From NCBI GenBank assembly GCA_008632985.1, contig QPGO01000066.1:141771-205770 (forward strand): a stretch of 64,000 nucleotides of DNA. The letters run 5' to 3'. A program made the translations under genes and the position numbers. The notes under the pieces were generated by a model, which did not search any database, was not told where the DNA came from, and saw only the letters and a program-made list of their open reading frames with translations. Shown here one piece after another: positions 1-62,814 of this stretch. Each line of letters opens with the position of its first letter. Position 1 is the first letter of the stretch. This stretch comes from Psammoneis japonica (lineage: Eukaryota).

Positions 1-3000
1 GGATGGATGCGTGGAGGAGCATCGCTCTTGCCATGTTGGAGACGGAGCGAATGCCGCGTTCTGCGACGCCGTTCTGATGGTGGGCGTTGGTTCCGCAAAA
101 ACGTAGACGTTGTTCGTGCTGTCGCATGTGTTGCACAAAAGCATTGGCCTTGAAAGCGCCAGAATCGGCAAGAAATTCTTGGATGATGACGCCGTGGTCC
201 ATCGCGTGCTTTTCAAACGCTTGCTTCGCTCGCACCGTTTCCACAGCAGAGAAACCAAGTTGGTGTTCAATGTGTGGGTAACCGGAGGCATGATCCACAA
301 AAATGCAGCCTCCTTTGTATTGCTGGGACGAGGCCTTCCCGCAGGAGTCGTAGGTTCGGCCGAGGAGACGGGATTCGAAGTGATCCACGCTGACGGCTTG
401 GCCTGGACGTAGATGCTCGGCTCGAAGAGCACCCTCACGCTCTGGAGTAGCCGCATGTTTGGCAGACTTGAGGGTTCGGCGATGTCCTTTGGCATGTTCG
501 CACACCTCGCACCGCGGAATGTCGCAACGCGAAGCATGCTTGAATTTGGGTCGGAGAAAAGGTTCGGCCCGAAGCAGGCCTTGGATGCGTGGCATGTTCA
601 GGTGACCAAACCTGAAGTGCCATTCTTGAAGGAGCTTCTGACCGGTGGTGAGGTTCTGGTTGTCCTCGTGCAACACAGACAGATTGACTTGAGGAGCGGG
701 TGCCACCCCGTTGGTCACAGACGCAACCGGCAAGTGATTTGACGCGTGCGCGACCTTGAGCGAACCGACGCCATCAACATGCACTCGAAATGAGTCCTCG
801 TCTCCCTCACATTTTCCTGTCACGCCATGTTCCTCACTGTAGAGGCGTTGTGGGGATAGAAGACATTGTCCGGCCTGAGGCACATGGTGCGCCATCGTCT
901 TGACGACGAGCTCAGAGCCGTCCTCGTCATGGAAAACCCAGGAGACGGGTCCGATGCCGGCGATGGTTAAGCCATTTGCTAGACCCCCCAGCTTCAATGG
1001 GCCATCAGGGATCGTCAGAGGTCCGACAAAGTTGTTTTCATTGTAAGTGATGGCTAAGGATGCGCCAGTGTCGCACATGACGGTGTGGCGCTCATGTGCT
1101 GGGCTCAGCAAAGCTTGCGGGTCGGCGGCGAGTTGTGCTAAAGAACGTTGGCCCGTCAATGCCTGCATAGAGGCATGAGCAGGACAGGCTTCGGTTCCGT
1201 CAGCAGCTGCCTGGAGAAGCTTCACAGGGTCTTGCCATGGAGTGGTGTCCACGAAACCAAACTTGGTGGACAGCTCGTCGAAACGAAAATAGTCCGGAGA
1301 GAGCTCCTCAACCGCATCAAAGCAGTGGCTCGGCTCGGTCGGGAGCGGGCCGAGGGCTTCCTCTGAATCACAGGTGTCGAAGTGGGACTCGGGGTCTTCT
1401 AGAGCTGGAGGGATGCAGCGGCCTGGGGAAGAGCATACGTCGTTCTCCCAGAGCTGCGTGAATTTCTTGCTCAGACAATGGTCCGGATCGCGCTCCACAA
1501 ATTCGGCAAGCACTTGTCGCGCCTTGATCTTGTTGTGTTCCACCAAACTGCCCGGATCTAACACCATCTTATCGTCTGGTTCTTCAATGATCGAGTAGAC
1601 CTGAGAGCTAGCTTTGGAGAAGCGAGAAGGGACATTGGAGAATGGATGCGTGGGAAGCTGACCGTTGAAAACAGACGCCCAGACCATGATAGCTCCAGTC
1701 AGCACCATCCAGGTAGAGGGGAAACCGTGAATGGTTGGGATGGATGCCTTACGGCGTATACGACGAGGTAAGACAGGAATCGGCGCACAGCAAATGTGTA
1801 GTAGCGTTTCCCAGAACATAGCAAACAGCCAGAAAACTCGGAGCTTCAAGAAGTTCCAGAAAAGCTCAAGACGAGAGCTCGGCGTTGCCTCCTCGACGCT
1901 ACAATCTACATCTTGGGGTTCGGGATCGTAAAATTCGAAACCGCGATGCTGGGTGCTTGGAGGTAAGTGCTCGTAGCTGTCTTCGAAAGGTAGGATGCTT
2001 GCCCCGGAAACGAGATCGTCTGACACATCGTCGGACAGACCTTCCACGTGAGTTGCGATCGTGTCATAAAACACGTCCGGATTTTGAATCTCGTGCATGG
2101 CATAGGCCGGAAATAGCTCGATAGCTGACGGTAGGGAGTCAAAAGAGGAGTGAGCGTCGGAGCACTCGGAGTAATCGTCAGCGTCTTCGGGGTCAACCGT
2201 TTCAACCAAGATGGGAGCGGGTTTGGCCACGGCAGTCTCCCTCTCGGCCGATGGAGCAGGAGTGAACGAGACGGTCGTAGTCACTGGAGTCGAACTCAAA
2301 GAGTCGTCCACAGGTGCACACCACATGCCGCAATAAACCAGCTCGTTAGGGTCAGAGGGTTCGTCTGTAGGCGGAGACGTCGTCTGCTCGGGAGGACCAA
2401 AAGGAATGCCCGAAGAGGGGTCCGACACAGCAGATAAATTTGCCGCAGCGGAGGTTTCGGTGTTGACAGACGGTTTCCCGGTGTGTTGAGCGGAGGAGTG
2501 GCCTTGACACATGCCCTTCTTGCCCGTTTCCTTGTTCACACACTTGTCGCACCAGTGCCAGGTCGTGCCTTTCTCGTCGGTGACAGTGGCACCTTTGTGA
2601 ACGAAACGCCAGGCCGGCTTGGGTGGTTTCTTGGAAGGGTTAGTCTTCCGGACGTCCGGAGGGTCATCCTTGGACTTGTCCGCCGTGCCCTTTTTGTCCT
2701 TCTTGCATTGCTCCTTGCAGGTGGGACACGTGCGTTTGGTGCACCCAACCTTGCCACAGCCGCAGCAATGCTTTTCCGAGTTGTCCTTGGCGAGGTTGGA
2801 TTCCGGGAGCTTGGCTGCTAAGGCAAGCCAATCTTCATTGCTAATGAGTTCGCCATGGGTCTTGGTGATCCAGCCAATGAGGCCAACAGGTCCAAGATCT
2901 GCATGGTCGGCATCCTTGGGGACTTCTGCCGGGTCACGCAAGCGACATTTGCGCTCCAAGCGCTTGACGGAGTCGAGCTTGGCAAAAACTTGACGATTGA

Positions 3001-3862
3001 AAAACTCGGAGGATGTCTTTGACACCTTAGATAAAACAGTAGACCCAGTTTCAACTGGTGACGCACAGTCCGTCTGCATGATCTTGAGCAGGCGTGGAGC
3101 TTCGGTTGCAAGCTCGGTGCAGTCCTCGCCAGGGTGGTTGTCCAGAGTTAAGTCGTTCAACTTTTCCTTGGCGGCCTTGACGTCAACCAGAGCACTGGCG
3201 TTGCAGGCATCCAGAGCCATCATAAATGAGACAGACCCCGGAAGATCCTTGCAGTTCTTCAAGTGATTGAACTTGGCTTCAATCTTTTCACGGAAGGTTT
3301 CGGTGACACGCGACTTGACGATGAGTTGTGACAAGCCGATGTCATCGATTTCATGCTGATCGTAGCCTTCGTCACCTGCAGCCGCCACACGGGTCTCATG
3401 TTCCTTCTCAAGGTCTTTGACAGTGAAGGCGTGAAGATGATCAAAAAGGTGCACGACCTTGCCGTCGACTTTCTTGAGATGGCAGAAAGTTTCTTGTCCG
3501 CGCGACTCGATCAAGTCCTGAATGGTCTTGACGAAGTGGTCTTTGTCCAGTTCAGCACTGGAACCGTTGGATAACTCAATCTGGCCGTTGAACTTGGATG
3601 TGGTTGCCGAAGCGAGTTGATCTCTGAGAGATCGCTCGATGGAGTCGACAGCTTTCGGATGGCGACGTTGCGAGGCAAAACGGCAGGTGCGGGTGTCGGT
3701 CTGCTCGTGCTTGTTGTTCAGAGCCGAACCACCCAGATGCACTCCATGAGAGTGGTGGACACCGCCGCGAAGCGGCGTGGGGATCGCAGGAGGGTTGGTC
3801 GAGGTTTGCATCTTGGCGAAGGCCTCAGCAAACATCTTGACGGTGTCAGGATCCATGGACAT
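1..3862 (-). CDS. Copia gag-pol polyprotein, at least 1287 codons, runs off the window
   Basis: Manual translation from ATG 3862 (MSMDPDTVKMF) stays open to position 2. It is absent from the ORF track because no stop occurs in the window. Motifs: zinc-knuckle-like CCGCGKVGCTKRTC (~2770-2730), aspartic protease CDTGAS (~1078-1061), GAG-pre-integrase WHFRFGH...CEVC (~620-495), integrase core SVDHFES...VDHASG...LADSG...NAHHQNGVAERGIR. Confidence 0.92.
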   Translation of the reverse strand, partial: MSMDPDTVKMFAEAFAKMQTSTNPPAIPTPLRGGVHHSHGVHLGGSALNNKHEQTDTRTCRFASQRRHPKAVDSIERSLRDQLASATTSKFNGQIELSNGSSAELDKDHFVKTIQDLIESRGQETFCHLKKVDGKVVHLFDHLHAFTVKDLEKEHETRVAAAGDEGYDQHEIDDIGLSQLIVKSRVTETFREKIEAKFNHLKNCKDLPGSVSFMMALDACNASALVDVKAAKEKLNDLTLDNHPGEDCTELATEAPRLLKIMQTDCASPVETGSTVLSKVSKTSSEFFNRQVFAKLDSVKRLERKCRLRDPAEVPKDADHADLGPVGLIGWITKTHGELISNEDWLALAAKLPESNLAKDNSEKHCCGCGKVGCTKRTCPTCKEQCKKDKKGTADKSKDDPPDVRKTNPSKKPPKPAWRFVHKGATVTDEKGTTWHWCDKCVNKETGKKGMCQGHSSAQHTGKPSVNTETSAAANLSAVSDPSSGIPFGPPEQTTSPPTDEPSDPNELVYCGMWCAPVDDSLSSTPVTTTVSFTPAPSAERETAVAKPAPILVETVDPEDADDYSECSDAHSSFDSLPSAIELFPAYAMHEIQNPDVFYDTIATHVEGLSDDVSDDLVSGASILPFEDSYEHLPPSTQHRGFEFYDPEPQDVDCSVEEATPSSRLELFWNFLKLRVFWLFAMFWETLLHICCAPIPVLPRRIRRKASIPTIHGFPSTWMVLTGAIMVWASVFNGQLPTHPFSNVPSRFSKASSQVYSIIEEPDDKMVLDPGSLVEHNKIKARQVLAEFVERDPDHCLSKKFTQLWENDVCSSPGRCIPPALEDPESHFDTCDSEEALGPLPTEPSHCFDAVEELSPDYFRFDELSTKFGFVDTTPWQDPVKLLQAAADGTEACPAHASMQALTGQRSLAQLAADPQALLSPAHERHTVMCDTGASLAITYNENNFVGPLTIPDGPLKLGGLANGLTIAGIGPVSWVFHDEDGSELVVKTMAHHVPQAGQCLLSPQRLYSEEHGVTGKCEGDEDSFRVHVDGVGSLKVAHASNHLPVASVTNGVAPAPQVNLSVLHEDNQNLTTGQKLLQEWHFRFGHLNMPRIQGLLRAEPFLRPKFKHASRCDIPRCEVCEHAKGHRRTLKSAKHAATPEREGALRAEHLRPGQAVSVDHFESRLLGRTYDSCGKASSQQYKGGCIFVDHASGYPHIEHQLGFSAVETVRAKQAFEKHAMDHGVIIQEFLADSGAFKANAFVQHMRQHEQRLRFCGTNAHHQNGVAERGIRSVSNMARAMLLHASI

Positions 3863-4163
3863 GGTTGTGGATGATTCGACATAGAGGATCGATTAGTGGG
3901 TAGGGATTGCGACACAGATGATCGCCGTTGGATTGCGACATAGAAGATTGCCGTTGGGTGGGATGTCGTCTGTAACGAGACGAACGAGTGGCAGCAACTC
4001 CGTTGCGAGTTGATGCCGGTGCGTGGATTGGGGTCGTAACCACTTGGGATACAACAATGCACTGTGTAGGATGGAGAGTTCAGGACTCTCTTGAGGTTGT
4101 ACAATACAACAGAGGATGATAAGAAGCAGGTTTGGGACAATAAGATACGCTAAAGATACGAAT

Positions 4164-4358: not shown

Positions 4359-4430
4359 CAACACCGCAAGGAGAGACCCATAATGATCTTGTGCAGATTG
4401 AAGTGAAGCAGCGAAGATCCTCTTTCAACC

Positions 4431-10635: not shown

Positions 10636-12208
10636 ATGAGGTTCTTCTCCGCGTTTCAAATGGCAGTCGCCATTATGGTGGTGTTGGCTCTACTACTACT
10701 ACCACCGCAGTCCAAGGCCGCAAAACCAGAAGATCTCTTCAGCCCTGTTGAACTCGATTCCATGATTGCGACTCGAGATCGTGCCCGAGAGGTCTTGAAG
10801 AAGAATAAATCCGCTCGTCGTCGGCCCCGCTTTGTTGGGGCTCCCAAGATCATGGGTATCCGTAGCACTACTCCACACGTTGGGTCTCCTGCGTCCCGTC
10901 TGGAAAGTGCTGACAGCAGGGTACGAACCGACAAAGACGAGCCTTTCAACACTGTTATCAACAAACTTCCAAACGAAAAAGACACAGGAATAAGCAAGGT
11001 TCATCTCCTTTTGTGTGCGACACTCTCGAGAGACCTTTACAAGGAAAAAAATACAATCAAGTTTGAAAACGATTTGAGACATGATACGGGACTAAAGGAT
11101 GTGGACGTTCGATTCTTGCACAGAGGCTTTACCATAACAGGTTTGCCTTCTGCTCTCAAGTTGCAAACGCCATTTGCTGCAGCCATTGATGGAGACACTT
11201 TAATCTTGGCTTGGCGGGGCACTGCAAGCTTTATGGATGTCATTGCGGATCTCAAGTTTGAACCGTGTTCTCCGTGGGCAAGTACTATGCCAGACCTTCA
11301 GGTCCAGAAAGCAATCTATGAGAAAGTTAAAAGGGACTTGGAACATCATGCGAAAGATATCCTCAGGTACGCTGTCACCGGCTACATGAAAGACAAGAAT
11401 GACCCCAGTATCCCTACGGACTCTGAAAAGAGTTGCGTACCTGTAAAGAGGATCATTCTTACCGGTCACTCTTTGGGTGGGGTAAGTGTTCCACATTTAG
11501 GATTATTGGTACCCATCGGCAGCATCATCGACCTCTCATATACCCGCACTCTCATTATGACGTCGGCAGGGCATTGCGCAAGTGGCTCATCTTGTGTTGA
11601 AACAACCAATAGATAGCAGCAGTGGACCGAGATCTTTGTTGGGCATTATAAATGACATTCTAGGGCGCAAGAAAGTAGAGCTCTCGGATCTCGCCTCTCA
11701 GCTCTCGGACAAAGGAGTAGATATACGCACAGTCGTATTCTCAGCTCCCATGTCGATTGCCGTGTCGGGTGATGACTCTGCACAAGTCGTCAAGTTCCTT
11801 CAAGATGAAATAGCACCCAAGATGTGCAACATTGTCTTCAGCACGGACGTGGTCCCTCATGGTTACGCCGACTTGAAGTTCATCAAAGCGTTCGCCGACG
11901 GACTCATTGACGATTTCGATGCCCTTGGGGAAGGTGTCGCACGAACCTTCCTCGAGTTTTTCTCGAGTATTATCGATAAGAGAAACGACGTGTTCGACCA
12001 ACTTACCAACTACCGTCACGTTGGTACAATTATTCATTACACCAAAAAAGGACCAGAATATCACTTGGACCTTCACGTAGACAAAGGCTTTGGATATGGC
12101 GGACTCCAAAAACACCAAGATCATCCCAAAGTTATTGAGACAGACGTGAAAACAGCTATATATGATCACAGCGATTGGTTAGGTCGCTTGCGCTTTCAAA
12201 ACCACTAA
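10636..12208 (+). CDS. Secreted class-3 (fungal-type) lipase; intron 11482-11569
   Basis: Signal peptide MRFFSAFQMAVAIMVVLALLLL; AWRGT oxyanion motif; GHSLGG nucleophile elbow followed by a GTAAGT...CAG intron; DVVP and YRHVG downstream. Confidence 0.88.
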
Positions 12209-12630
12209 GACGCTAATATATGTACCGTCGTGCTCCACTCGCAGCGCTTAATGCAGCCTTCTCCGACTATTTGCGTTAGCGAAATGCGGAGCACACATTC
12301 TCGTTGAACGCACGCAATATGTTTTGCCAACGAATACTTGGGCCAACATGCATAATATGGAATTACAGTAGCAAGAGTGCTTTGGTGTTCAACATACATA
12401 CAGTTTTAAAAAGATTAATTTCGAGATCCCTTGTCTCATACCAACCTATTTCGCAAGAAGAAAATTTAAAGAACGGATTGGACGTTCAGACGTTATTTTT
12501 TGAAAGGCATCGTGAATAAGCCACAGAGAACATGACGCACTGCACTGGACAGCAAGTGGTTCTTACACGCCCTCAGAATGAGAAATTTCGTGGGGATGTG
12601 GTTATTCGTGCATTTTATTCGGTGGTTGTC

Positions 12631-13226
12631 TCACACTACCCTGTTTTTGTTGTTGAAGTCTAACCATGGGCGCAAGCATTCCTTCAACAAATGGCGCAAT
12701 AAGCGAAGTGGAGAGTGCCAATTTGCGGAGGACAGTAAATCGGCACAATCTTTCTTTCGGCTGTCGCAACTCAGGCGACAATCATCGCTCAAAGACGACG
12801 TTGATGCAACTGCTTCGTCGTTCCGTAACGTGTCAAGAAAGATCCAGAACACTATCAAGAATACCATGCCAACGGCTACTCCCAAGATGAACGAATAAGC
12901 CAACAGTTTTTTGATCAGTTCACCAGCATCGTGGAACTCGTATCCGCTCATACAGATATAACCATACCCAAAAGGAGAGACCATTCCTCCACGAATGGCA
13001 ACATTCATCGACTCTGACGGATGCAATGATGAAGGATGACTCTTTTTGAAATCAAAGTGAGTCTTGAGAGAGTTGCGGCATTGAACTCGATACCTTCTAA
13101 GAGCAAGCATGCCTGGAGATCTGGGAGTGGCAAGCCGTTCGGGAACACGAATCGAGGCCGCTGAAACCATCAGCAACAACAGCAATGTGGCTTTGAGTTA
13201 AGGAGAAGAACAGAAAATCTCCTCAT
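12631..13226 (-). pseudogene. Copy A of a small signal-peptide/TM protein family (paralog of 18195-18938), frameshifted in the signal-peptide region
   Basis: ATG 13226 (MRRFSVLLL) matches the paralog start (MRRSFVFLL) but is out of frame with ORF 12631-13185. Shares its N-terminal region and C-terminus (DLLSSANWHSP.RLLRHLL.ECLRPWL) with the paralog. Confidence 0.6.
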
Positions 13227-13480
13227 GGTGGATGCTCTGCTGCCACAGTGACTCCTCCAGCGTCTTGATCACATCGAGCTGGGATTTTCGTGAGACACAA
13301 CATGATGCATGTTTGAAGCGGGACCAAGCGAAGAAACGCGCGTTGCTTGAGTCGTGTCATGTATCGTGTCGCGCATTACTGTGTATGATGTGTGTCGCTT
13401 CTTTCTGATGGTCGCCGTACAAAAAATCCAAAGAAAAAATGAGAAAGCAGTCTTCGCCGCCGCATGGTCCTCAAGCGATC

Positions 13481-14509
13481 ATGATGAAGCTCGTCCTCAC
13501 CACTTTAGCGATCTCCGTAGTCCTCACATTGGATGCTGCCTACCGACTCTGGAACGTTCGCAATGATGGTCAACTTGTTCCCTCTCCGATGAAGCACGTG
13601 CGTTGTGTTGACACCTGGGAGGACCTCCGAAGCAGAACTGCGAGCGCTAAGGAACATGATGTCGTCACGGTTTGTCATTTAGCGTCCTTAAAGGTTCCAG
13701 GTGGAGAAGGGCCAATCGTAGTTAAGGGGCTTGAGGCGCTCACGATTCAGTGCGCGGGTCAGTGTCTAATTGGTGGGGGTCGGACACAATTCGAGATTGA
13801 AGGGGTACGCAGCCTGACCTTCAAGGGCGTCGCGTTCCACGACGTTGTTGATACTCACGTAAAAATCAAGTTCCTGAAGAATATTGATCAAGCAGAAGTG
13901 AAATTCCAGGATTGCATGTTTTTCGGTAACTGGTATTCTCGCGGAAGTAATTACCCTAAGAACGCCGTCATCGCCTGCGAAAATGAAGAGCTCGGCATCG
14001 AAGCGTCCGGGCATGGTAAGGATGCAAGGCTCACCATTGAGAACTCAGACTTTACAAACAATAAGGTCCATGACTGTGTCATTTGTAATCGTGGCTGTGA
14101 CCTCAATGTGCACAGCACGTTATTCAAAAGCAATTACGCATTCTTTGACGGATGGAGCAGTGCCCTCATACGCAATTTCAGGAGCCTATGCGACATTGAT
14201 CTTGCTTGTGAGGCAAAGATGAAGGTTACTGACTCGTGTTTTATTCGAAATACTGGGAGTCTCACTCCTGCACTGTACGAGCAATGCATGGACTGTGTCG
14301 GAGCATCTCCTGGCATACAAGGGATCGCGGGTCGATACAACTTTCCTTGTAACGGGTTTTACTATCACAACTGGTCCTTCTATGACTGGAGTGAAGAAGA
14401 CAATTTTGAGAGGTCAGTCTTGCCGACATGCAAAGAATTTAATACTTTGGCGTGTGTGCGTTCTGAGCCACTTCACACTTTCAAGGATTTTGCTGGAAGT
14501 GTCGGGTAA
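13481..14509 (+). CDS. Secreted or membrane-anchored Cys/Asn-rich protein, probable right-handed parallel beta-helix (pectin-lyase-like fold)
   Basis: Hydrophobic N-terminus MMKLVLTTLAISVVLTL; repeated motifs FQDCMFFGN, IENSDFTNN, VHSTLFKSN, VTDSCFIRN. Confidence 0.7.
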   Translation: MMKLVLTTLAISVVLTLDAAYRLWNVRNDGQLVPSPMKHVRCVDTWEDLRSRTASAKEHDVVTVCHLASLKVPGGEGPIVVKGLEALTIQCAGQCLIGGGRTQFEIEGVRSLTFKGVAFHDVVDTHVKIKFLKNIDQAEVKFQDCMFFGNWYSRGSNYPKNAVIACENEELGIEASGHGKDARLTIENSDFTNNKVHDCVICNRGCDLNVHSTLFKSNYAFFDGWSSALIRNFRSLCDIDLACEAKMKVTDSCFIRNTGSLTPALYEQCMDCVGASPGIQGIAGRYNFPCNGFYYHNWSFYDWSEEDNFERSVLPTCKEFNTLACVRSEPLHTFKDFAGSVG

Positions 14510-16841
14510 AACAAGTCAGAAAACTGATGCTGTTGGGTACGACGTAGAATAATCCATATATTTCAGTCTATTCGCTTGTTTGTTTGATAGATTCTATCCT
14601 AAGTTTTGTAATTCAGTAGAATGATGCCATGCAACCTTCGTTTTTAATGCCAGTGACTCACAACACCGCACTGAAACTAAAAAGGCGCGCGTTTCGACAT
14701 GTGCACTGGAAACGGCAGAAAGAATCCAACAAATGCCTGTCACGTCATTGCATCTCGAAAACACAAGGAGAGATTTGAACAGCCAGACACGAGATGATGA
14801 TCCGAGGTGTAGAGAGAAGCACTCAAAGCCTCGTTTCACAGTGCTCATCACCAAATGGATGTACAGAAGAATGATGAATGGACCTTTGGTTGGAGTTCTT
14901 TGAAAGATTTCCAATTGAAAATCATTGAGCTCCAGGTCACCCATCAAGAAGACTTTTAAACAATGATGCATGGGTTTGCAGGGTTTCTGCAGAGTGTCAG
15001 TTCCAATGTGATGGTGTGATCTCTTTCCATTTTTTCTCCTGACTTTTTCTCGTCTTCAACAATTTGCAATTGACACAGCCAATCAGGAAAGGGCAGGGCT
15101 GCTCATCACCAATCAGAGCTCTCTGTCTGCCCTTTGACGTGACTGGCTTGCCAGCCATCCTTCCTGTCAACCTGGGTCCTTTTTCACCACATCCTTCATG
15201 CCCCCAACTTGCAATGTGTCATGCTTTGGCGCAGCTTGGATGTCACAAAAATGTTTGCTTTGCAGTTGATTTGCACTCTGCTGGTGTGGTTGACAGATGC
15301 AGCCAGCCAGCTGTGCAGCTTTGTCATGTCATGAGCAATCACCCTTCCACCTGCAGCAAACTTTGATGTTGCTTTTGCCCAAGACTGGGACACTTTGGAA
15401 CAGAAGCTGGCTTGATGCAGTGCCCATGTGAGCCAGACATGCCCCGGTCCCTCTCAGCACTCGTGCTGGAGACCTTTTCAAAGGCAACTTCTTTAGATTG
15501 CTCTTCACATTTGATTTTTTTAGCTCAAACTGGCAGGATCAGCTGGCAAAAAGCAAACAGAGAGGGTCATTCTGCCATTTGTGTCAGAGGTTCTTGTCTT
15601 CACTCTGGAAGGCAGGGTTGTTGTCTTTTTTCTTGTTGTGGCCTTGTCATGGAGAACATGGGCAGAGCCAGCAGCAGTGCTTGCCAGCTGATCTCTTTCC
15701 TCTAACTTGCTTTTGAGTGGCACAGGAATGGCTCCAGTTGGAGAGGAGTGGTGTTTGCACCTTTTCTGCTCATGACGGAAGGCAGCACCTTTGACAGTTT
15801 GGAAGCATTGATGCACTTGCAAACAGATCATGCAATTGCCCAGCCCTCACAACCATTTGACAAAACTTTAGGTTGATGGACCTCAGGTGCTGCCAGCCAC
15901 AATGCTTGCTGCTCAACAAGGCTCTGTGATGGCAAATTCCTCAGTGGCGTTTGTGCCAGTGGCAGTGACTCCTTGCTTGTCACTCACGATCACTGTCAGC
16001 AGCATTCTTGAGACAATGATGCTCAAAGCATGACATTTTCATGTTGGAAGATGCTAAGTCACCCTGATTGCCAGCACTGGAAAGAGCTTGCTTCTTCTCA
16101 TTCACAGTGCAGAACTCAGCAAGCAAGCTTGATGAACTCTGTGCACCAATCTTTCTCTGTCTTTTCCCATTTCCTTGCAGAGCTCAGACACCAGTGCTGC
16201 ATCAGAAAAGACAGCATGCTCCATGGCAACAATCAAAGATCACACAAACCTTTGTGCAGCCACATTCACTCCCCTTTGTGAGAGAGCCACGCTGCTGACG
16301 ATGTCACACCCACGCAGCTCATTCTCGGTGCAGTCAGCACTCTGTCTGCTCCAAGCCCTGGAGATGCTGTCCAACAAAGAACTCAAAACAAAAAGACAAA
16401 AAACAACAATGAGAGTGCCAGCAGCTTGGAAACATTCTGCACACAGCCAACAATGCCTGCTAGACTGCACATTTTGGTTTGAGGTTGGTTGGTCATGATG
16501 CTGTCACCAGACCTCTCACCAGCTCTTCACTCATGTTGAGATCCTCTAGAGCCAAGCTGACCAACCCAATGAAGACAAGCTCTGCAATGCACCATTGCCC
16601 ACCATGACCAATCCCACAGCTTTGCCAACATGGCCGTGAAGTGCGTGGCTGTCACACATGAGTGACCCCACCCCTGGATCTGCTGAGCACCATGTGATTG
16701 CTCCCCACCAACACTTTGATTTGTGTGGCAGTCCAGGCATGCACACAGAAGCCCAAAGTGCTTGCATGAAACTTGCATGAAACTCTAAGGGCAGATGTGT
16801 GGGATGTGCCAATTTCCACACATGAGATGCCCCGCCCCCAT

Positions 16842-17226
16842 GCTGGACAGCTTCAAAGCCACAAAAAACAACAATGAGGTGAGACATTAGATGAGTTTCT
16901 GACCATTGCAAGATGTCACAAAATCCTTGAAGTCATCCAAACCAACACTCAAGTTGACCATGATTTTTGAGCAGAGAGTGGCCAGTTGTTTGTCAGCTCT
17001 TGACCACTTTTTCACAAAGAGAGCAAGGCACCAAGCTGGACAGCTTCAAAGCCACAAAAAACAACAATGAGGTGAGACATGAGACAAGCTTCTGACCATT
17101 GCAAGATGTCACAAAATCCTTGAAGTCATCCAAACCAACACTCAAGTTGACCATGATTTTTGAGCAGAGAGTGGCCAGTTGTTTGTCAGCTCTTGACCAC
17201 TTTTTCACAAAGAGAGCAAGGCACCA
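16842..17226 (+). repeat. Tandem duplication, ~193-bp unit x2
   Basis: gctggacagcttcaaagccacaaaaaacaacaatgaggtgagacat...gagcaaggcaccaa starts at 16842 and at 17035. Confidence 0.9.
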
Positions 17227-17236
17227 AAAAACAAAA

Positions 17237-17690
17237 GATGACTCTGCACAAGTCATCAAGTTTCTTGAAGATAAAAGGGCGCCCAATCAATTGGTCAATC
17301 AACTCAACGATTGCTGGCCAGTGGCTTCAGCACAGATGTGGTCCCTCATGGTTGTGCTGACTTGAAGCTCATCAAAGCTTTCGCCAATGGACTCATTGAC
17401 GATTTTGATGCCTTTGGGGAAGGTGTCGCACAAACCTTCCTTGAGTTTTTCTCGAGTGCTGTCAAAAAGAGAAATGACATGTTCAGTCAACTTGCCAACT
17501 GCTGCCATGTTGGCACAATTTTTCATCACACCAAAAAAGGACCAGTGTGCATTGGACCTTCACGTTGACAAAGGCTTTGGATGTGGCAGACTCCAAAAAC
17601 ACCAAGATCACCCCAAAGTTGTCGAGACAGACGTGAAAACAGCTCTGCATGATCACAGCAAATGGTCGCTTGCGCTTTCAAAACCAATAA
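17237..17690 (+). pseudogene. Decayed copy of lipase exon 2 (source 11771-12210)
   Basis: Colinear alignment with the intact lipase; differences fall overwhelmingly at TpA and CpG. Confidence 0.92.
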
Positions 17691-18194
17691 AGACGCAAAT
17701 GTTTGGTGCTGCCATCTCTGGCTGTTTGCTCTAGCTAACACGCATGCTGTCGGATCACAGTAACAAGAGTGCTTGGTTGGTCAAGATACATCTAAAAGGT
17801 GTCTTTCGACATTTACAAGAGCTGCAGTCTCTACAAGAGCTGCAGTCTTACCCTCACTTATTCGGTTCGCCCCTTCTACTCAATCGTTTACACGACATGC
17901 TGTGAAACTGTTGGCTGTGCGTTTTTGGCTATATGGTTTTACTGGTCAACAAAGTCGCAGAAGTCTCGTCAACTTTTTTGCGGTGGAGAGTCCGCCTCCA
18001 TGGCTGAGTTAATCCTACGGCATTGTTATCTCATGAAGTTTCAGGCCCAATGTAGCCACGATATAGGAAAAACAGGGATAACGCAGCACTTAAAGTAGAA
18101 ACTGAATATGCTCTTTCACGCCCTCAACAAATGAAAAAAGAATTCGTGGACATGTGCCACTTTGGTTATTCGTTTATTCGAATCAGTGGTTATC

Positions 18195-18938
18195 TCACTG
18201 TTTGTTGTTGATGTTGTGCAACCAGGGGCGCAAGCATTCCGTCAACAAATGGCGCAACAAGCGAATTGGAGAATGCCAATTTGCAGAGGACAGTAAATCA
18301 TCGTCGTCTTCTTCTTTCTCTCCGATTTTTTGAGCATGGTTTCCAAGGTATAAACAAGCACCACCAAAGGTGTCACCAAAAACGGCCAAAGCTGAAAGGC
18401 CGCATTTACCTGAGCATGCTTTATAAAAACCGGCAATGGCTGCGGTGGTTCCACAAACGCTTCCCGTGCCATAGAAGATTCTTTCCATAACATTTTTTGT
18501 TTTCATACATTTGATAAATGAGACTCCTCCTATAGCTACCCCGCCAGCAGCCCATCCAAGATTCGCTCCAATTGCGAATTGTGGTGAACCAAATTTAGCA
18601 AGCACTTTTACAAAGTCCAACAATAATTTGATCTCTTCATAAGCTTCGTCTAACTCGGCCCTGCTCATACAGATGTAATCGGCGTCAGGAAAGATAATGT
18701 CTCCACCACGAAGGGTGACAATCTTCGACTCTGACGGGTGATGATGATGATGAAGGACGGTTGTTCTTTTTGAAGCGAAGCTGAGTATTGAGAGAGTTGC
18801 GGTGTTGAACTCGACGCTTTCCAGGAGCAAGCGTGATCTGGGAGCAGCAAGCCGTCCAGGAACACGAGTCGAGGCAGCTGAAAGCATCAGCAACAACAGA
18901 AGTGTGAGTTGAAGAAGAAAAACGAATGATCTTCTCAT
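18195..18938 (-). CDS. Copy B (intact, 247 aa) small signal-peptide protein with an LRGG motif and Gly/Ala-rich hydrophobic core
   Basis: Open ORF with signal peptide MRRSFVFLLQLTLLLLLMLSAAS and normal TA/CG content; paralogous to 12631-13226. Confidence 0.72.
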   Translation of the reverse strand: MRRSFVFLLQLTLLLLLMLSAASTRVPGRLAAPRSRLLLESVEFNTATLSILSFASKRTTVLHHHHHPSESKIVTLRGGDIIFPDADYICMSRAELDEAYEEIKLLLDFVKVLAKFGSPQFAIGANLGWAAGGVAIGGVSFIKCMKTKNVMERIFYGTGSVCGTTAAIAGFYKACSGKCGLSALAVFGDTFGGACLYLGNHAQKIGEKEEDDDDLLSSANWHSPIRLLRHLLTECLRPWLHNINNKQ

Positions 18939-19029
18939 GGTGTTGGTCGTTGCTCTGATGCCGCAGTGACTCCAACGTCTTCATCATATCGAGCTGGGGT
19001 TTTCGTGGGATGCACGATACGAATTTGAA

Positions 19030-22000
19030 CACGGTGGCTGTGGTGCTTCCTGGGCGAACGCATCTCCGAAGCAGCCAGCAGCCATGGCAGCTGTCGGTGC
19101 ATCTCGTTCATCAATTTGGTTTTCCTCGTATCTGTAGGCTTTTTAATGATGCTTTTTGGTGACTGTTGGTGCGCTTTCAGAAGCCGTGATCACCTGCAAA
19201 AATGGAAAGCTTTGCATCAAAGTGTCAGGGCAAGGCTTGCCATTGAGAACCCAGACTTTGCAAACAACAAGGTCCGTGACTGTGTCATTTGCAATCATGG
19301 CTGTGCCGTCAATGTGAGCAGCACGTTGTTCAAAAGCAATGGCGAGCTCTTTGACAGATGCGCGGAGCAGTCCCCTCCTCATGCACAGCTTCAGGAGCCT
19401 GTGTGATGTTGATCTTCCTTGCCTTCACCAGAAATGCCAGGAGTCTTGCTCCTGCACTCTGCAAGCAATGCTTGGAATGCATGGGAGCATTTCCTGACAT
19501 GCAAGGAATCACAAGTTGTTGCAACTTCCCATTCCATCACTGGAGTGTAGAAAGCCATTTGGAGAGAGGTCAGTCTTGCTGACACGCATGTCATTCGATG
19601 CTTCAGCATGCGTGCATTCTGAGCCACTTCACACTTTCAAGGATTTTGTTAAGTGCATTGCAGAATGATCCATGCATGCTTCAGAAGCGGCCTGCAGCCA
19701 TGGCAGGAGGTGTCGGCGCATCTCATTCATCAGCTTGGTTTTTCTTGCAGCTGCAGGCTTTAACGATGCTTTTTGGTGACTGTTGGTGTGCTTTCAGAAG
19801 CCGTGATCACCTGCAAAAATGAAAAGCTTTGCATCAAAGTGTCAGGGCAAGGCTTGTCATTGAGAACTCAGACTTTGCAAACAACAAGGTCCGTGACTGT
19901 GTCATTTGCAATCATGGCTGTGCCCTCAGTGTGAGCAGCACATTGTTCAAAAGCAGTGGCAAGCTCTTTGACAGATGCATGGAGCAGTGCCCTCACGCAC
20001 AGCTTCAGGAGCCTGTGTGATGTTGATCTTCCTTGCATTCACCAGAAATGCCAGGAGTCTTGCTCCTGCACTCTGCAAGCAATGCTTGGAATGCATGGGA
20101 GCATTTCCTGACACGCGAGGGATCACAAGTTGTTGCAACTTCCCTTGCAATGGGTTTTGCCATCACAGCTGGTCATTCCATCACTGCAGTGTAGAAAGCC
20201 ATTTGGAGAGGTCAGTCTTGCTGACATGCATGTCATTCGATGCTTCAGCATGCAAGCACTCTGAGCCACTTCACACTTTCAAGGATTTTGTCAAGTGCAT
20301 TGTAGATTGATCCATGTGTGCTTCAGTCTTTTTGTGCACTTGTTTAACAGAGTTTTGTGAATCAGCAGAATGATGCAATGCAACCTTTGTTTTGAATTCC
20401 AGTGAAAAACACCAAAAGTTTGTTTGAGCTCACCACACTTCCCCCAATCTGAAAGGGTGTGCTTTCTGACATGCACTGGAAATGGCAGAAAAATCCAACA
20501 AATGCTTGCCATGTTTGCTGCCATTGCATCTTGATTGCAAGGAGAGGCAAACACAAGATGACAACCCGAGGTGTGGAAAGAAGCACTCAAATCCTCATTT
20601 TGTCATGCTTGTCACCAAATGGATGGGCAGAAGAATGACGAATGGACCTTTGGTGAAAGAGTTTCAACTGAAAACTGTCAAACTCTGGGGCACCCATTGA
20701 GAGGATTTGTGTGATGCACAATTCCATGCAGTGTTTCTGCAGAGTCTGTTTCTCAATGCAATGATGTGATGGACTTCTGAACCCTGAATGTCTCTTTCCT
20801 TTCTTTCTCTTGACTTTCTTGACTTCTTTGATGACTTGCCATTGACACAGCCAGCACTTTGCTGATCAGATCTTTCTGTCTGCCCTTTCACATGCCTGAC
20901 TTGCCAGCTGTCCTGCCTGTCAATCTGGGCACTTTTTCATCACACCATTCATGCCTGTAACTTGTGTCTTCTGTCTTGAGTTGTTCACACTCTGCACACT
21001 TGGTGGTGACATTCATGTGATGCCATGTGGGTGGCTGTGTCACACAGTGCATCATGCAAAGTGCATGCAGGGCTGCGCCCTTCTTGTCCACACTTTGGCA
21101 CAGCTTGGTTGTCACAAAAAAATTGCTGCACACTCTGATTTGCATCCAGCAGGTGTGGTTGATGACACAGACAGCTGCTGTGGCTTTGTCTTGGCACAAG
21201 CAATCAACCTTGCACCTTTGGCAAACTTTGAGGTTGTTCCCACCAAGAGCTCCATCTGACACACCACCATGCCATCAAAGTGGACATGCTCTGGAGTGGA
21301 AGCTGGCCCAAAGTGGTGCACATGTGCTGAGCTGGACATGTCCAGAACACTCACAGCACACACATGCTGGAGAACTTTTTAATCTCTCTGAGTTGAGTGA
21401 CTTTTCCTCAGATTGCTCTCCATGCCTGGCTTCTCTGTGGCACAAATTGGCAGGATCAGCCAGCAAAAAAAAAAGTCTTGCTCTGTCATTTGAGCCCATG
21501 ACATGCCCAGCCAGGCTCTTGTCTTGACTCTGGGAAGACAGAATCATTGCTTGTTGTTCTCTTTTTGTGGCAGCCTTGTTGTGGAAAACTTGGGTGGAGC
21601 TGGCGGCAGTGCTCGCCAGCAGATCTTTTTCCTGACTTGATGATGAATGGCATGGGTGTGGCTCCAGCAAGCCAGAGGAGAGCAGCGCTTGTGCCTTTTC
21701 TGGCCCAGTTCACCCAGCTCAGGATGGAGGGCAAACAATTGTCTGCCTGCCAGAAATTTAGACTTTTCAGATGAGCCACAGCTTTCTGGCCCCATTGCAG
21801 TCAGTTGGTTGGCAGAAATGCTCTCCACAGCTGTTTCCTCCAGATTGCAGGGCTGCTGGAGTTGTTCCCACAGCACATCCAAACAAGTGCTGCTGTGGCC
21901 ATCCAATGCATCATTTTCTTCATCACATTTGCCACCATCCCCAACCTCCCAGACCCCTTGCATCTCAAGGACAAAGTCAATGGGTGCAAGCAAGTGATTT

Positions 22001-22600
22001 GGCTGGAGCAGCCACTCTCCTTTCATTGCAGCTTCTCATTGAACAGAATGGCCAATGATGTGATCTTCCATTGAACAAATCTTGCAAAGCACACGGGCTG
22101 TGCATCTCACAAATTCTTTGTCAACCATCACACGCAGTTGTGCTCTGTTGCACATGTTCATTTGCTCAGATGCTCTTTGCCCAAATGCTTTGATTTTTGT
22201 GGCAGCCCAGGTGCATGCACACAGAAGCAAGCTCAAAGTGCTGTGCAAAATTCCAAGGGCAGATGTGTGGGAGATGCCAAGCTCTGTGCATCAGGCACCA
22301 ACTTCAAAGCTGCAAAACCACAACGAGGTGAGATGATCTTCTCACCGCCCATTGCAAGATCTCATGTTGCAACAAAGTCCTCAAAGTCATCCCAGTCCCT
22401 GCTCAAGTTGACCATGCAACAGCTTTCCCACACTCTGGCCCAAACCATCCACAGCTTGTGTTTTGGGGATGATGCTTTCACACTCACCTGATGGCAGAGC
22501 TGGTTTCCGCAAGTTCCACCGCTCTTGTCACATAATGCGGCACTGTAACACCCAACACACATCCAGACAAGCAGATAAATGTGCCCGACAGTTGAGCATT
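19030..22600. other. TpA/CpG-depleted decayed domain D2
   Basis: TA nearly absent. Contains two decayed beta-helix gene fragments and the homolog of D1. Confidence 0.85.
19066..20300 (+). pseudogene. Two tandem (~620-bp) decayed copies of the 3' half of the beta-helix gene (source ~14024-14490)
   Basis: gcaaggctt...attgagaac.cagactttgcaaacaacaaggtcc...ctgagccacttcacactttcaaggattttg at ~19229-19648 and ~19847-20290; units start at ~19066 and ~19683. Confidence 0.9.
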
Positions 22601-42806: not shown

Positions 42807-43814
42807 CCCACTAGCAACCCCTACGTGTGTTTCTACGCGTGCTCTCGTACTGATGTCGCCCTTTTCAGACGGCGTTTCGCTGAGTCCCCTGTCAACCTTT
42901 TGGCCCCTTCTACCATTGGTACACCCTTTTATCTCCATGATGTGCAATAATTTTCAGTGGAAAACGACTGGCGTCGACACTTCATGGTTCGTATGCTTGT
43001 TGTCTTATTTGGTAATTTTTTGCGGATTCGGTGCGATTTCTACACAGAATCCAGTGCAAGTTCTACGCGCTTCAGAAATGCATGTCGACAGTCATTACGT
43101 CTCCGATACGATCAACTTCCATCCTTGCCCGAAAGCCCCCAACAATTTCTTTTACTCCTGCTGGCTGCTCAAGTTCTTCACCTCATGTGGTGAAAGTGCT
43201 GTCCCTGTTGTGGCGCCTGCGAGTGTTCGCATGGACAAACCATCGGCACCATCTGACGACCGTCCATTTGCTGCGCGGATCGGCTTTTCCACGCAAGATT
43301 CAGTGTCAATTCTACGTGAGAATAACATTTCTTCCGACGACCTTCTCGTCACATCACCAAGACTTCCTGTTTCATCCTTGCAAGTCACGAACATCCCCTT
43401 TTCTGCTTGCTGGCCCACCAAGATCACCGTTCCGAGCAGTGAACTGCACATTGTTGTTCTGGTTCATGCAACTGTGAAATTCAATCAGTCTTTGTTGAAG
43501 ACAAGATTCTCCCTCAGAGGCAAAGATTTTCTCTCAGAGCATGCGCTGACTTTGAATTCTCTACTTAACTTGATTGTCCTTTGCTGTGGTGGTTTGGGTG
43601 CCTTGCATCCTCTCCGAAAGAAAGCAACAATCTCACTCTGGTGCAATTTTTCCTTGACCTTTTATCACTGGTGCGCGTCGCTGCAAAGCGGCACGTTGAC
43701 CGACTGATCGCATGACATTCTGCCGCACTCTCCTCGCAGGGTGCGCTGGAAGTGTGGGTCAGCCGGCGCCGGTGTTGCTGGGCAAAGGTGCAACAGCACT
43801 TAAAATTGGGTTTT
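42807..43814 (+). repeat. Left arm of a ~1-kb inverted repeat (partner 48899-49800)
   Basis: cccactagcaacccctacgtgtgtttctacgcgtgctctcgtactgatg...ggcaaaggtgcaacagcacttaaaattggg matches the reverse complement of 48899-49800. Confidence 0.85.
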
Positions 43815-49800: not shown

Positions 49801-50215
49801 GGTGGCTGACGTCAGGAAGTGATGAGCCTCATGAAAAAGATGTCATGATGTTGGTTGCAAATAAAGATGTTGCATCTGGCAAGTGGACCATGTTCTTCAA
49901 TGACCTGGTGACTGTGGCAAGTGTGGTGAATTTGTTCTTTGATGCTGGGCAGGAGGCGACCAGGCCAGAGAAATTGAAAAGCAATCAGATGAGGCGACAG
50001 TGAAGCAAGTTTTGGGAAATCTTCCATATTTAGAGAAAATGTGTGAGAGCCTTTGCAGCATTTGATTTTCAGATTGCAGTGGAGGGCACAGGCCAATCTT
50101 TGTTGATGTTTCTCCCAGAGCGCAATACGAGATGGTTTCTTGATTCTAAAAATGATTGTGGCTGGACGTTGACACACTTGTATAGACATTCGACTGTAAG
50201 AATGTGAAAGCCTTT

Positions 50216-62781: not shown

Positions 62782-62814
<33 letters not shown>

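What the first reader, a model, noticed from the sequence alone, without database searches (positions are those of the whole stretch)
14950..22600. Domain-targeted TpA-erasing mutator (reverse-RIP-like) acting on silent repeats and duplicated genes
Seen: intact source and decayed copy are both in the window. Hand alignment of lipase 11836-12175 against copy 17326-17662 shows all 16 TpA lost (9 to TG, 3 to CA, 4 by transversion) and 18 of 24 CpG lost (17 to TG/CA), with few changes elsewhere. Example: acttaccaactaccgtcacgttggtacaattattcattac -> acttgccaactgctgccatgttggcacaatttttcatcac. The beta-helix copies show the same (tttacaaacaataagg -> tttgcaaacaacaagg), as do domains D3 and D4. Established: CpG->TpG is expected from 5mC deamination (diatom repeats are CG-methylated by DNMT5), and fungal RIP converts CpA->TpA and so creates TpA. 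Neither explains TpA loss, which here is more complete than CpG loss and runs opposite to RIP. Inference: an undescribed process mutates TpA in silenced chromatin, for example a base modification or deamination at TpA, or error-prone repair. It converts Tyr codons to His/Cys and removes TAA/TAG stops, and may serve as genome defence.
Basis: partly seen in the sequence, partly recalled or inferred. Interest (0 to 1): 0.92.

Follow-up and report, generated by a model that had tools for sequence, protein, structure and literature searches.

The report
TpA-erasing hypermutation domains in a diatom
Several blocks of this diatom's DNA have had nearly every TA and most CG dinucleotides converted to TG or CA, the long-term footprint of a TA-specific mutation process so far reported only once, in 2026, in an unrelated alga.

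Summary
Four domains (about 14.8-17.2, 19.1-22.5, 45.6-49.9 and 61-64 kb; 13.1 kb) hold 48 TpA against 888 expected and 138 CpG against 754 expected, with TG/CA at about 1.8 times expectation. Genes and inter-ORF spacers nearby are normal.

Three independent in-window duplications show the direction. Of 66 source TpA, 1 survives, and most became TG or CA. Twenty outgroup lipases confirm that the TA state is ancestral.

The hit adenine prefers a 3' pyrimidine (T-A-Y), and surviving TpA are mostly YTAR. A Copia element shows TpA loss with CpG intact, so the two arms are separable.

The process is not homology-triggered like RIP, not RNA-level and not a genome-wide neutral bias.

It is no longer undescribed. 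A 2026 bioRxiv preprint shows TpA->TpG/CpA hypermutation of silent viral inserts in mutation-accumulation lines of the chlorarachniophyte Bigelowiella natans.

This window is from a diatom. It adds a second lineage, saturation, host pseudogenes as targets, a CpG arm (probably 5mC decay) and a flank preference. Enzyme, chromatin state and defence role remain untested.

The parts
14800..17230 (.). Depleted domain D1. It begins about 300 bp after the stop of the 13439-14509 gene. No recognisable coding content.
   Evidence: TA 12 obs/166 exp and CG 17/137, with TG 1.80 and CA 1.76. Of the 15 six-frame ORFs from 14600-17400, 2 have only sub-cutoff Pfam matches and none reaches a curated cutoff. 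Paralogous to 21093-22416.
17237..17700 (+). Decayed copy of the 3' end of the class-3 lipase gene (source 11771-12217).
   Evidence: 86% identity. 18 source TA, 0 kept (9 TG, 3 CA). 28 CG, 9 kept (18 TG/CA). Frame broken. 20 outgroup lipases side with the intact copy at Tyr95/144/153/194.
17701..19100 (-). Normal-composition island between D1 and D2, holding ORF 18195-18980, the paralogue of 12631-13197.
   Evidence: TA o/e 0.51 and CG 0.85. The same-age duplicate pair shows no net loss: TA 6 vs 4 and 7 vs 8, CG 8 vs 8 and 16 vs 19.
19101..22500 (.). Depleted domain D2. It holds two tandem decayed copies of the 13439-14509 gene (19179-19648 and 19796-20964) and a copy of part of D1 (21093-22416). 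It ends about 200 bp before the tRNA isopentenyltransferase gene (22709-24295).
   Evidence: TA 12/229 and CG 33/195. For 13959-15211 vs 19796-20964: 30 TA with 1 kept (14 TG, 8 CA), and 37 CG with 2 kept. The two copies share their losses. D1-vs-D2 pairs show 21 TG<->CA double differences.
11771..14950 (+). Source unit of the ~5.4-kb tandem segmental duplication: lipase 3' end, ORF 12631-13197 (minus strand) and ORF 13439-14509. Composition is normal.
   Evidence: Self-BLAST collinear blocks. Region 4000-14500 has TA o/e 0.57 and CG 1.03. Lipase_3 Pfam hit on the upstream exon.
42807..43813 (+). Source of an inverted duplication (ORF 42667-43707).
   Evidence: Self-BLAST against 49799-48900. 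tblastn of the ORF against the copy.
43700..45600 (.). Intermediate zone: TpA nearly gone, CpG only partly lost.
   Evidence: TA 13/121 (0.11) and CG 69/116 (0.60). Surviving TA are 7 of 13 YTAR.
45601..49900 (.). Depleted domain D3. It holds a frameshifted remnant of a choice-of-anchor-I domain gene (45896-46701, minus strand) and the decayed inverted copy 48900-49799.
   Evidence: TA 15/290 and CG 52/248. PF22494 hits at 3.9e-13 and 6.4e-9 in two frames. Inverted pair: 18 TA with 0 kept (8 TG, 7 CA), and 35 CG with 8 kept.
61000..64000 (.). Depleted domain D4, which runs off the window end.
   Evidence: TA 9/203 and CG 36/173. No Pfam hit in its 22 six-frame ORFs.
2..3892 (-). Copia-type retroelement ORF (1297 codons, runs off the window) with TpA loss but intact CpG.
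   Evidence: gag_pre-integrase and Pol_BBD matches, both below Pfam's curated cutoffs, and 258 Copia relatives at E<=0.001. TA 58/196 (0.30) and CG 279/292 (0.96). Of 12 Tyr columns conserved in 18 homologues, 2 are kept, 4 are His and 2 are Cys; other conserved residues are kept at 40-100%. RTAY sites are 4 of 58 against 300 of 889 in normal DNA, p=3.8e-6.

Best explanation
A DNA-level, regionally targeted mutational process converts adenine to guanine at 5'-TpA-3' on either strand, so TpA becomes TpG or CpA. It strongly prefers T-A-Y. In pseudogenic domains and in one transposon of this diatom it has run to near saturation. Flanking genes and their spacers are spared.

A second, slower arm removes CpG in the same domains (CpG->TpG/CpA). 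This is most simply the deamination of 5-methylcytosine, because diatom repeats are CG-methylated.

The TpA arm is the same kind of process that mutation-accumulation lines revealed in Bigelowiella natans (bioRxiv 10.64898/2026.01.13.699255). The most likely chemistry is enzymatic deamination of adenine to hypoxanthine in DNA by a TadA/ADAT2-like deaminase recruited to silent chromatin. Inosine is then read as G at replication. Because TA->TG/CA cannot make a stop codon and destroys TAA and TAG, hit sequences keep long open frames while their proteins are ruined (Tyr->His/Cys).

Shown here: the spectrum, the polarity, the flank preference, the confinement to regions, the separability of the two arms and the independence from duplication.

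Inferred: adenine rather than thymine as the attacked base, the enzyme, targeting by chromatin state, 5mC as the cause of the CpG arm, and any defence role.
For: - Spectrum: A in TpA shows 55 transitions in 117 sites, about one hit per dinucleotide. Other A show 63 in 766. C in CpG shows 60 in 161, other C 40 in 588.
- Three independent normal-to-depleted pairs: TA kept 0/18, 1/30 and 0/18; CG kept 9/28, 2/37 and 8/35.
- Asymmetry: the lipase copy gained 1 TA from TG/CA and lost 12 to TG/CA.
- Polarity: at 32 amino-acid differences, the residues of 20 outgroup homologues match the intact lipase 225 times and the copy 31 times. Four Tyr positions that are Y in 16-17 of 20 homologues are Cys or His in the copy.
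- Action after the duplication, independently in each copy: 21 TG<->CA double differences between D1 and D2 paralogues.
- Regional confinement: TA o/e by codon phase in 11 ordinary ORFs is 0.44/0.55/0.57, with CG at 1.19/1.06/0.88. In 8645 bp of inter-ORF spacers outside the domains, TA is 0.62 and CG 0.93. The domains have TA 0.054.
- Not triggered by homology: only one copy of each pair is hit, and the 12561-13295 / 18112-19010 pair is untouched in both copies.
- Flank preference: the mutated A has a 3' C or T in 36 of 48 events, p=7e-4. Surviving TA are YTAR in 31 of 48, against 135 of 889 in normal DNA. RTAY survivors are 2 of 48 against 300 of 889; chi-square p=8e-18.
- Separable arms: the Copia ORF has TA 0.30, CG 0.96 and Tyr-specific loss.
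- Both strands are hit with no strand runs: 27 runs observed against 25.1 expected.
- Precedent: in B. natans, 230 of 231 de novo mutations in two silent viral regions are A->G or T->C and lie on TpA, at about 6e-7 per site per generation. [quoted passage not shown]
- Bacterial TadA edits within UACG, that is U at -1 and C at +1 (review PMC10027721, passages read). This fits the T-A-C preference found here.
- Loss of DNMT5a removes methylation and de-represses transposons in the diatom P. tricornutum (PMC9998398, abstract and passages).
Against: - No chromatin, methylation or expression data exist for this organism here, so 'silent chromatin' is assumed.
- TpA is its own reverse complement, so sequence alone cannot tell whether A or T is the attacked base.
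- No deaminase gene could be sought, because no genome is held.
- The identifiable content of the domains is host-type pseudogenes and not virus: no viral or transposon domain in 97 six-frame ORFs. The parallel with 'foreign DNA' targeting in B. natans is therefore incomplete.
- B. natans shows no C->T arm, and the preprint text does not mention CpG.
- TAT is also favoured here (14 of 48), and no G enrichment is seen at +2, so the match to TadA's UACG is partial.
- About 130 kb of diatom-like metagenome contigs showed no such domain, so generality among diatoms is not shown.
Confidence: 0.6

Rival explanations
1. The attacked base is thymine, not adenine. A TET/JBP-type enzyme modifies T in R-T-A (for example to 5-hydroxymethyluracil). 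Mispairing or faulty repair then gives T->C, which on the other strand reads as A->G at T-A-Y.
For: TpA is palindromic, so every observation fits equally well as T->C at R-T-A. A preference of 5-hydroxymethyluracil for TpA and TpC in dinoflagellate DNA is recalled, not checked in any call.
Against: No such modification is known to me in diatoms (recalled). The -1 U / +1 C preference matches a known adenine deaminase motif. The authors of the only experimental study favour adenine deamination.
Confidence: 0.12
2. One bifunctional deaminase makes both arms, deaminating A at TpA and C at CpG in the same domains, without any role for 5-methylcytosine.
For: The two arms share domain borders in D1, D2, D3 and D4. 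The preprint cites ADAT2 enzymes of amphioxus and Trypanosoma as acting on both A and C in DNA.
Against: The Copia ORF has lost TpA with CpG at 0.96. The lipase copy lost 18/18 TA but only 19/28 CG. In B. natans, 230 of 231 mutations are AT->GC. CG methylation of diatom transposons is established.
Confidence: 0.08
3. There is no targeting. TpA and CpG are hypermutable everywhere in this genome, and the domains are simply DNA without selection that has reached mutational equilibrium.
For: The domains fill the space between apparently functional genes, and their recognisable content is pseudogenes. TA o/e is rather low even in genes, at 0.44-0.57.
Against: Weakly constrained positions are not at equilibrium. 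TA at the codon 3|1 boundary is 0.57, and 8645 bp of spacers are at TA 0.62 and CG 0.93, against 0.054 and 0.18 in the domains. Borders are sharp: TA-free DNA up to 17700 gives way to TA 27/38 in 17701-18194.
Confidence: 0.07
4. The changes were made in RNA by A-to-I editing at UpA, and were fixed when edited transcripts were reverse-transcribed and inserted.
For: One target is a retroelement. UpA is a favoured context of known RNA-editing deaminases.
Against: The affected copies are collinear multi-gene segmental duplications that include spacers and genes on both strands. A->G changes lie on both strands, interleaved: 30 TG against 18 CA, and 27 runs against 25.1 expected. Paralogous domains diverged after duplication in place.
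Confidence: 0.02
5. The pattern is an assembly, polishing or sequencing artefact.
For: None was found.
Against: Logan contigs of DNA run X1 match the domains with 0-1 differences at even depth of about 57-67, though X1 may be the assembly's own sample. The changes are biologically coherent: frame decay, Tyr->His/Cys, sharp borders at genes.
Confidence: 0.01

Closest known systems
TpA-specific hypermutation of integrated viral DNA in Bigelowiella natans (Mettrop et al., bioRxiv 10.64898/2026.01.13.699255; Results and Discussion read, supplements closed)
   Same: A->G / T->C transitions confined to TpA. The products are TpG and CpA. [quoted passage not shown] It is not dependent on copy number.
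   Different: The lineage differs: diatom (stramenopile) against chlorarachniophyte (rhizarian). Here the signal is an evolutionary footprint at saturation (TA o/e 0.05, against Rho 0.45 for their NCLDV region), not a measured rate. The recognisable targets are host-gene pseudocopies and a Copia, not viral inserts. CpG is co-depleted; the preprint text never mentions CpG. A 3' pyrimidine preference is seen here and is not stated in the preprint text.
Repeat-induced point mutation (RIP) of ascomycete fungi
   Same: Irreversible, context-specific transition mutagenesis that destroys non-essential or selfish DNA and leaves a dinucleotide signature in blocks.
   Different: RIP makes C->T at CpA and so creates TpA and lowers GC. 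Here TpA is destroyed and GC is unchanged. RIP is triggered by duplication and hits both copies. Here one copy of each pair is spared and one pair is untouched.
CpG decay by 5-methylcytosine deamination in methylated DNA (DNMT5-methylated diatom transposons: PMC9998398, abstract and passages)
   Same: CpG->TpG/CpA at about 12 times the rate of other C, confined to the domains.
   Different: It explains only the CpG arm. Methylation of these domains was not measured. TpA loss is faster and can occur without it (Copia).
TadA/ADAT adenosine deaminases and their editing motif (review PMC10027721, passages read)
   Same: Deamination of A preceded by U/T. Bacterial TadA sites are UACG, matching the -1 T and +1 C preference here (22 of 48 events).
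   Different: These enzymes act on tRNA and mRNA hairpin loops. Here +1 T is also favoured and +2 G is not enriched. Fungal ADAT-type mRNA editing prefers A/G at +1, the opposite of what is seen here. No enzyme was examined.

Membership tests
TpA-targeted A:T->G:C hypermutation (B. natans type) | Mutations are A->G / T->C transitions that fall on TpA dinucleotides | tested here: met
   48 of 64 source TpA in three independent pairs became TG or CA, and 1 was kept. The transition rate at A in TpA is 0.47, against 0.08 at other A.
TpA-targeted A:T->G:C hypermutation (B. natans type) | [quoted passage not shown] | tested here: met
   Windows 15001-18000, 19001-23000, 44001-50000 and 61001-64000 satisfy both thresholds.
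TpA-targeted A:T->G:C hypermutation (B. natans type) | Confined to particular regions while the rest of the genome has an ordinary spectrum | tested here: met
   Within this window only: genes and spacers have TA 0.44-0.62 and CG 0.88-1.19, against 0.054 and 0.18 in the domains.
TpA-targeted A:T->G:C hypermutation (B. natans type) | Targets are foreign (viral or transposon) and transcriptionally silent DNA | tested here: inconclusive
   One Copia element is hit. The domains hold host-type pseudogenes and no viral or transposon Pfam domain in 97 ORFs. Expression could not be assessed.
TpA-targeted A:T->G:C hypermutation (B. natans type) | TpA changes occur without an accompanying G:C->A:T arm | tested here: inconclusive
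   In the domains CpG is also lost. In the Copia ORF the TpA arm stands alone, with CG at 0.96. The arms look separable, but the enzyme basis is unknown.
TpA-targeted A:T->G:C hypermutation (B. natans type) | De novo rate of about 1e-7 to 1e-6 per site per generation, active only in some lines | not testable with these tools
   This needs mutation-accumulation lines or population data for this diatom.
Fungal RIP | C->T transitions (mainly CpA->TpA) that raise TpA and AT content | tested here: not met
   TpA falls to 0.054 of expectation. GC is 0.48 in the domains and 0.47 outside.
Fungal RIP | Triggered by sequence duplication, with both copies mutated | tested here: not met
   The source copies 11771-14950 and 42807-43374 are normal while their duplicates are mutated. 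The duplicate pair 12561-13295 / 18112-19010 is unaffected in both copies.
5mC-driven CpG decay | C->T specifically at CpG | tested here: met
   60 transitions at 161 C/G sites in CpG, against 40 at 588 elsewhere.
5mC-driven CpG decay | The affected DNA is cytosine-methylated | not testable with these tools
   No methylation data are available. It is known for transposons of other diatoms.
ADAR-type RNA hyperediting fixed by retrocopying | A->G on the transcript strand only, in copies made through RNA | tested here: not met
   Both strands are hit and interleaved. The copies are collinear genomic duplications that include spacers.

The most novel reading that the evidence does not exclude
Diatoms and chlorarachniophytes share an ancient, chromatin-guided DNA adenine deaminase system that reads T-A-Y and permanently erases it from any DNA the cell has silenced: transposons, viral inserts and dead gene copies. 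It works alongside cytosine methylation. It would be a RIP-like genome defence of the SAR supergroup built on A-to-I chemistry in DNA, and a natural double-stranded-DNA adenine editor.
Probability: 0.3. Interest if true: 0.88.

Novelty: new member of a known kind. Interest (0 to 1): 0.68.

Why it matters
Natural, targeted A-to-G mutagenesis of genomic DNA was unknown until a single 2026 preprint. This window shows the same signature in diatoms, a different and ecologically dominant lineage, and shows where the process ends. Kilobase domains are left with about 5% of expected TpA. Tyr codons are rewritten to His or Cys, and TAA/TAG stops are erased, so dead DNA looks like long open reading frames, which is a trap for gene prediction.

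The window gives a testable motif (T-A-Y; survivors are YTAR). It shows that host pseudogenes, not only foreign DNA, are targets. It also shows that the TpA arm acts faster than CpG decay and independently of it.

Because the two arms cancel in GC content, GC-based or RIP-index scans would miss such domains. If the enzyme is found, it would be a natural DNA adenine deaminase of interest for base editing.

Tried and rejected
- Whole genome: none is held, so no genome-wide scan and no deaminase search was possible.
- Earlier scan notes: none for this genome, and none relevant by words. The TpA hits concerned phages.
- Exact protein look-up of four ORFs: none is in the collection.
- Transposon or viral remnants in the domains: 21 and then 97 six-frame ORFs were scanned against Pfam. 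Only choice_anch_I fragments passed a curated cutoff.
- PDB sequence search with one choice_anch_I fragment: no match.
- Other diatoms: 80 metagenome loci around isopentenyltransferase relatives were fetched. 20 of them look eukaryotic (about 130 kb) and the rest bacterial. 0 of 1598 windows are depleted. These short, gene-dense contigs cannot show absence in other diatoms.
- Copia relatives in viral contigs: none.
- Expression: no RNA holder is listed. Contigs of run X2 cover only 13500-14536, 18220-18999 and 22673-23400, and nothing in D1 or D2. A part without cover is not evidence, so it is recorded here only.
- Strand-coordinated bursts: the runs test is negative.
- TG-versus-CA product bias: 30 against 18, p=0.11, not significant.
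- The two tandem copies at 19179 and 19796 share their losses. They were counted as one event, and only 19796-20720 entered the polarised counts.
- The site-level counts do include both of those copies, which inflates n but not the pattern.
- Rejected readings: RIP, RNA editing with retrocopying, genome-wide neutral equilibrium, and artefact. See the rival explanations.
Full report
**What is there**

A 1-kb dinucleotide profile of the window shows four blocks in which TpA and CpG are almost absent and TpG/CpA are nearly doubled. Refined borders and totals are:
- D1 14800-17230: TA 12 observed / 166 expected, CG 17/137.
- D2 19101-22500: TA 12/229, CG 33/195.
- D3 45601-49900: TA 15/290, CG 52/248.
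- D4 61000-64000, running off the window: TA 9/203, CG 36/173.

Together this is 48 TpA against 888 expected (0.054) and 138 CpG against 754 (0.18), with TG and CA at 1.76-1.93. Two 10.5-11 kb stretches of ordinary genes have TA at 0.57 and 0.54 and CG at 1.03 and 0.96.

GC content is the same inside the domains (0.48) and outside (0.47), because the two conversions cancel. The GC profile therefore does not show the domains.

In 80 loci fetched from metagenomes, none of 1598 1-kb windows comes near this state. Contigs built by Logan from DNA run X1 match the window across the domains with 0-1 differences. X1 may be the assembly's own sample, so this argues against a consensus artefact but is not independent material.

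Of the 49 differences, 34 sit in the 80 of 340 columns that belong to source TA/CG. The quoted strings occur where stated.

**Anatomy**

Self-BLAST shows a ~5.4-kb tandem segmental duplication, with unit A at 11771-16962 and unit B at 17237-22416. A second, inverted duplication pairs 42807-43813 with 49799-48900.

Unit A carries the 3' end of a class-3 lipase gene, a minus-strand ORF (12631-13197) and a 356-codon ORF (13439-14509). All of these have normal composition, and they are followed by D1.

In unit B the lipase piece (17237-17700) and two tandem copies of the 356-codon gene (19179-19648 and 19796-20964) are decayed. The copy of the minus-strand ORF (18195-18980) sits in a normal-composition island (17701-19100; TA 0.51, CG 0.85). 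The copy of D1 forms the rest of D2.

D2 ends about 200 bp before a tRNA isopentenyltransferase gene.

D3 holds a frameshifted remnant of a choice-of-anchor-I domain gene. Among 97 six-frame ORFs of the domains, no transposon or viral domain was found.

**Direction and spectrum**

In three independent normal-to-depleted pairs, source TpA survive in 0 of 18, 1 of 30 and 0 of 18 cases. Source CpG survive in 9 of 28, 2 of 37 and 8 of 35 cases. The great majority of losses are single transitions to TG or CA.

Per site, A in TpA shows 55 transitions in 117, which is about one hit per dinucleotide: the first hit destroys the context for the second. Other A show 63 in 766. C in CpG shows 60 in 161, and other C 40 in 588. 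That count includes both tandem copies at 19179 and 19796, which share their losses. The polarised counts below use only one of them.

The reverse change is rare. The lipase copy gained 1 TA from TG/CA and lost 12 to TG/CA.

Polarity was checked with an outgroup. I aligned 20 distant lipase homologues from a library-wide search. At the 32 amino-acid differences between the intact gene and its copy, the homologues' residues match the intact gene 225 times and the copy 31 times. At Tyr95, 144, 153 and 194, 16-17 of 20 homologues have Tyr, while the copy has Cys, Cys, His and His. The TA-rich state is therefore ancestral.

Between the two depleted paralogues (D1 against D2) there are 21 TG<->CA double differences. 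This is expected if an ancestral TA or CG was resolved independently in each copy, so the process acted in place after the duplication.

**It is regional and not triggered by duplication**

In 11 ordinary ORFs, TA o/e by codon phase is 0.44/0.55/0.57. That includes the nearly free 3|1 boundary. CG by phase is 1.19/1.06/0.88.

In 8645 bp of inter-ORF spacers outside the domains, TA is 0.62 and CG 0.93. Unconstrained DNA next to active genes is thus ten-fold richer in TpA than the domains. This argues against a genome-wide neutral bias.

Only one member of each duplicate pair is mutated. The same-age pair 12561-13295 / 18112-19010 shows no net loss in either copy: TA 6 vs 4 and 7 vs 8, CG 8 vs 8 and 16 vs 19. 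That is unlike RIP.

**A flank preference**

Of 48 polarised TA->TG/CA events, the mutated A is followed by C in 22, T in 14, A in 6 and G in 6. That is 36 of 48 pyrimidines, p=7e-4.

The survivors give independent support. The 48 TpA that remain in the domains are YTAR in 31 cases (TTAA, CTAA/TTAG, CTAG), against 135 of 889 in normal DNA. RTAY sites, which have a favoured A on both strands, are 2 of 48 against 300 of 889 (chi-square p=8e-18).

The target is therefore best written T-A-Y.

Changes lie on both strands without runs: 27 runs observed, 25.1 expected. The TG:CA ratio of 30:18 is not significantly skewed (p=0.11).

**The two arms are separable**

The Copia-type ORF at 2-3892 has relatives that are 2100-2250-residue polyproteins, including some from Fragilaria crotonensis. 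It has TA 58/196 (0.30) but CG 279/292 (0.96).

Of 12 Tyr columns conserved in at least 70% of 18 homologues, it keeps 2. Four are His and 2 are Cys. Other conserved residues are mostly kept, ranging from Ile 40% and Met 50% up to Trp 100%.

Its RTAY sites are 4 of 58, against 300 of 889 in normal DNA (p=3.8e-6).

The zone 43700-45600 is intermediate, with TA 0.11 and CG 0.60. In every pair, TpA loss is more complete than CpG loss.

**Consequences**

TA->TG/CA cannot create a stop codon, and it destroys TAA and TAG. In D1, TAA plus TAG words on both strands number 21, against 143 TGA. Long ORFs are common in the domains, and the 1297-codon Copia frame is open even though its conserved tyrosines are gone.

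**Organism**

The isopentenyltransferase's best named relatives, at about 50% identity, are from Seminavis, Cylindrotheca, Pseudo-nitzschia, Nitzschia, Amphora and Mayamaea. The Copia's named relatives are from Fragilaria. The window therefore comes from a diatom without a close sequenced relative in these collections. It is not Bigelowiella.

**Comparison with what is known**

Full-text searches for this signature in diatoms found nothing.

One paper describes the TpA arm: bioRxiv 10.64898/2026.01.13.699255, found. I read the abstract, Results and Discussion. Its supplements are closed.

In 15 mutation-accumulation lines of B. natans, 231 of 302 nuclear mutations fall in two integrated viral regions. 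Of those 231, 230 are A->G or T->C and lie on TpA, at about 6e-7 per site per generation, and only in some lines. [quoted passage not shown] An ADAT2-like deaminase is proposed.

The preprint text mentions neither CpG nor a flank preference.

The present window meets its cluster definition and its spectrum. It differs in five ways:
- the lineage;
- the degree of depletion (0.05, against Rho 0.45 for their NCLDV region);
- the recognisable targets;
- the presence of a CpG arm;
- the T-A-Y refinement.

The CpG arm is what 5mC deamination would give. DNMT5a-dependent methylation silences transposons in P. tricornutum, and RID-related DNMT4 genes of unknown function occur in many diatoms (PMC9998398, passages).

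The -1 T / +1 C preference resembles the UACG motif of bacterial TadA. It is unlike fungal ADAT-type mRNA editing, which favours A/G at +1 (PMC10027721, passages). That ADAR prefers a 3' G is recalled, not checked in any call.

**Verdict**

It is no longer undescribed, and its link to silencing, its enzyme and its function were not testable here.

I file it as a new member, in diatoms, of the kind first reported for B. natans. The added features are worth following up.

Noticed in passing
window 24912-41738 (minus strand): A single stop-free frame of 5608 codons built from long tandem repeats: 480-bp units at 83-93% identity over 29.0-34.1 kb and 600-bp units at 90-95% over 36.1-39.1 kb. GC is 0.53-0.61 with strong GC skew. 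It is probably a giant repetitive surface or matrix protein gene.
   Followed up: no
window 16838-17034 and 17031-17227: A 197-bp tandem duplication at 97.5% identity at the edge of D1. It is far younger than the 5.4-kb duplication around it.
   Followed up: no
proteins P0294, P0298, P0299 (Copia relatives from ENA assemblies): Their Tyr content is only 0.7-1.1%. They keep 7-12 of 26 conserved Tyr columns (2-6 changed to His/Cys), while other conserved columns are kept at about 70%. They may be TpA-hypermutated copies in other organisms, but their DNA could not be fetched.
   Followed up: partly
window 45896-46701 (minus strand): A frameshifted remnant of a choice-of-anchor-I (PF22494) gene inside D3, with no intact paralogue in the window.
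   Followed up: partly
whole window; loci L001-L020: Ordinary genes here have TA o/e of 0.44-0.57. The diatom-like metagenome loci lie mostly at 0.55-0.88. A low-level genome-wide leak of the TpA process is possible but unproven.
   Followed up: no
window 13439-14509: This 356-codon ORF, the source of the decayed copies in D2, has no Pfam family and only one relative (52% identity) among 5.8 billion clustered proteins.
   Followed up: no
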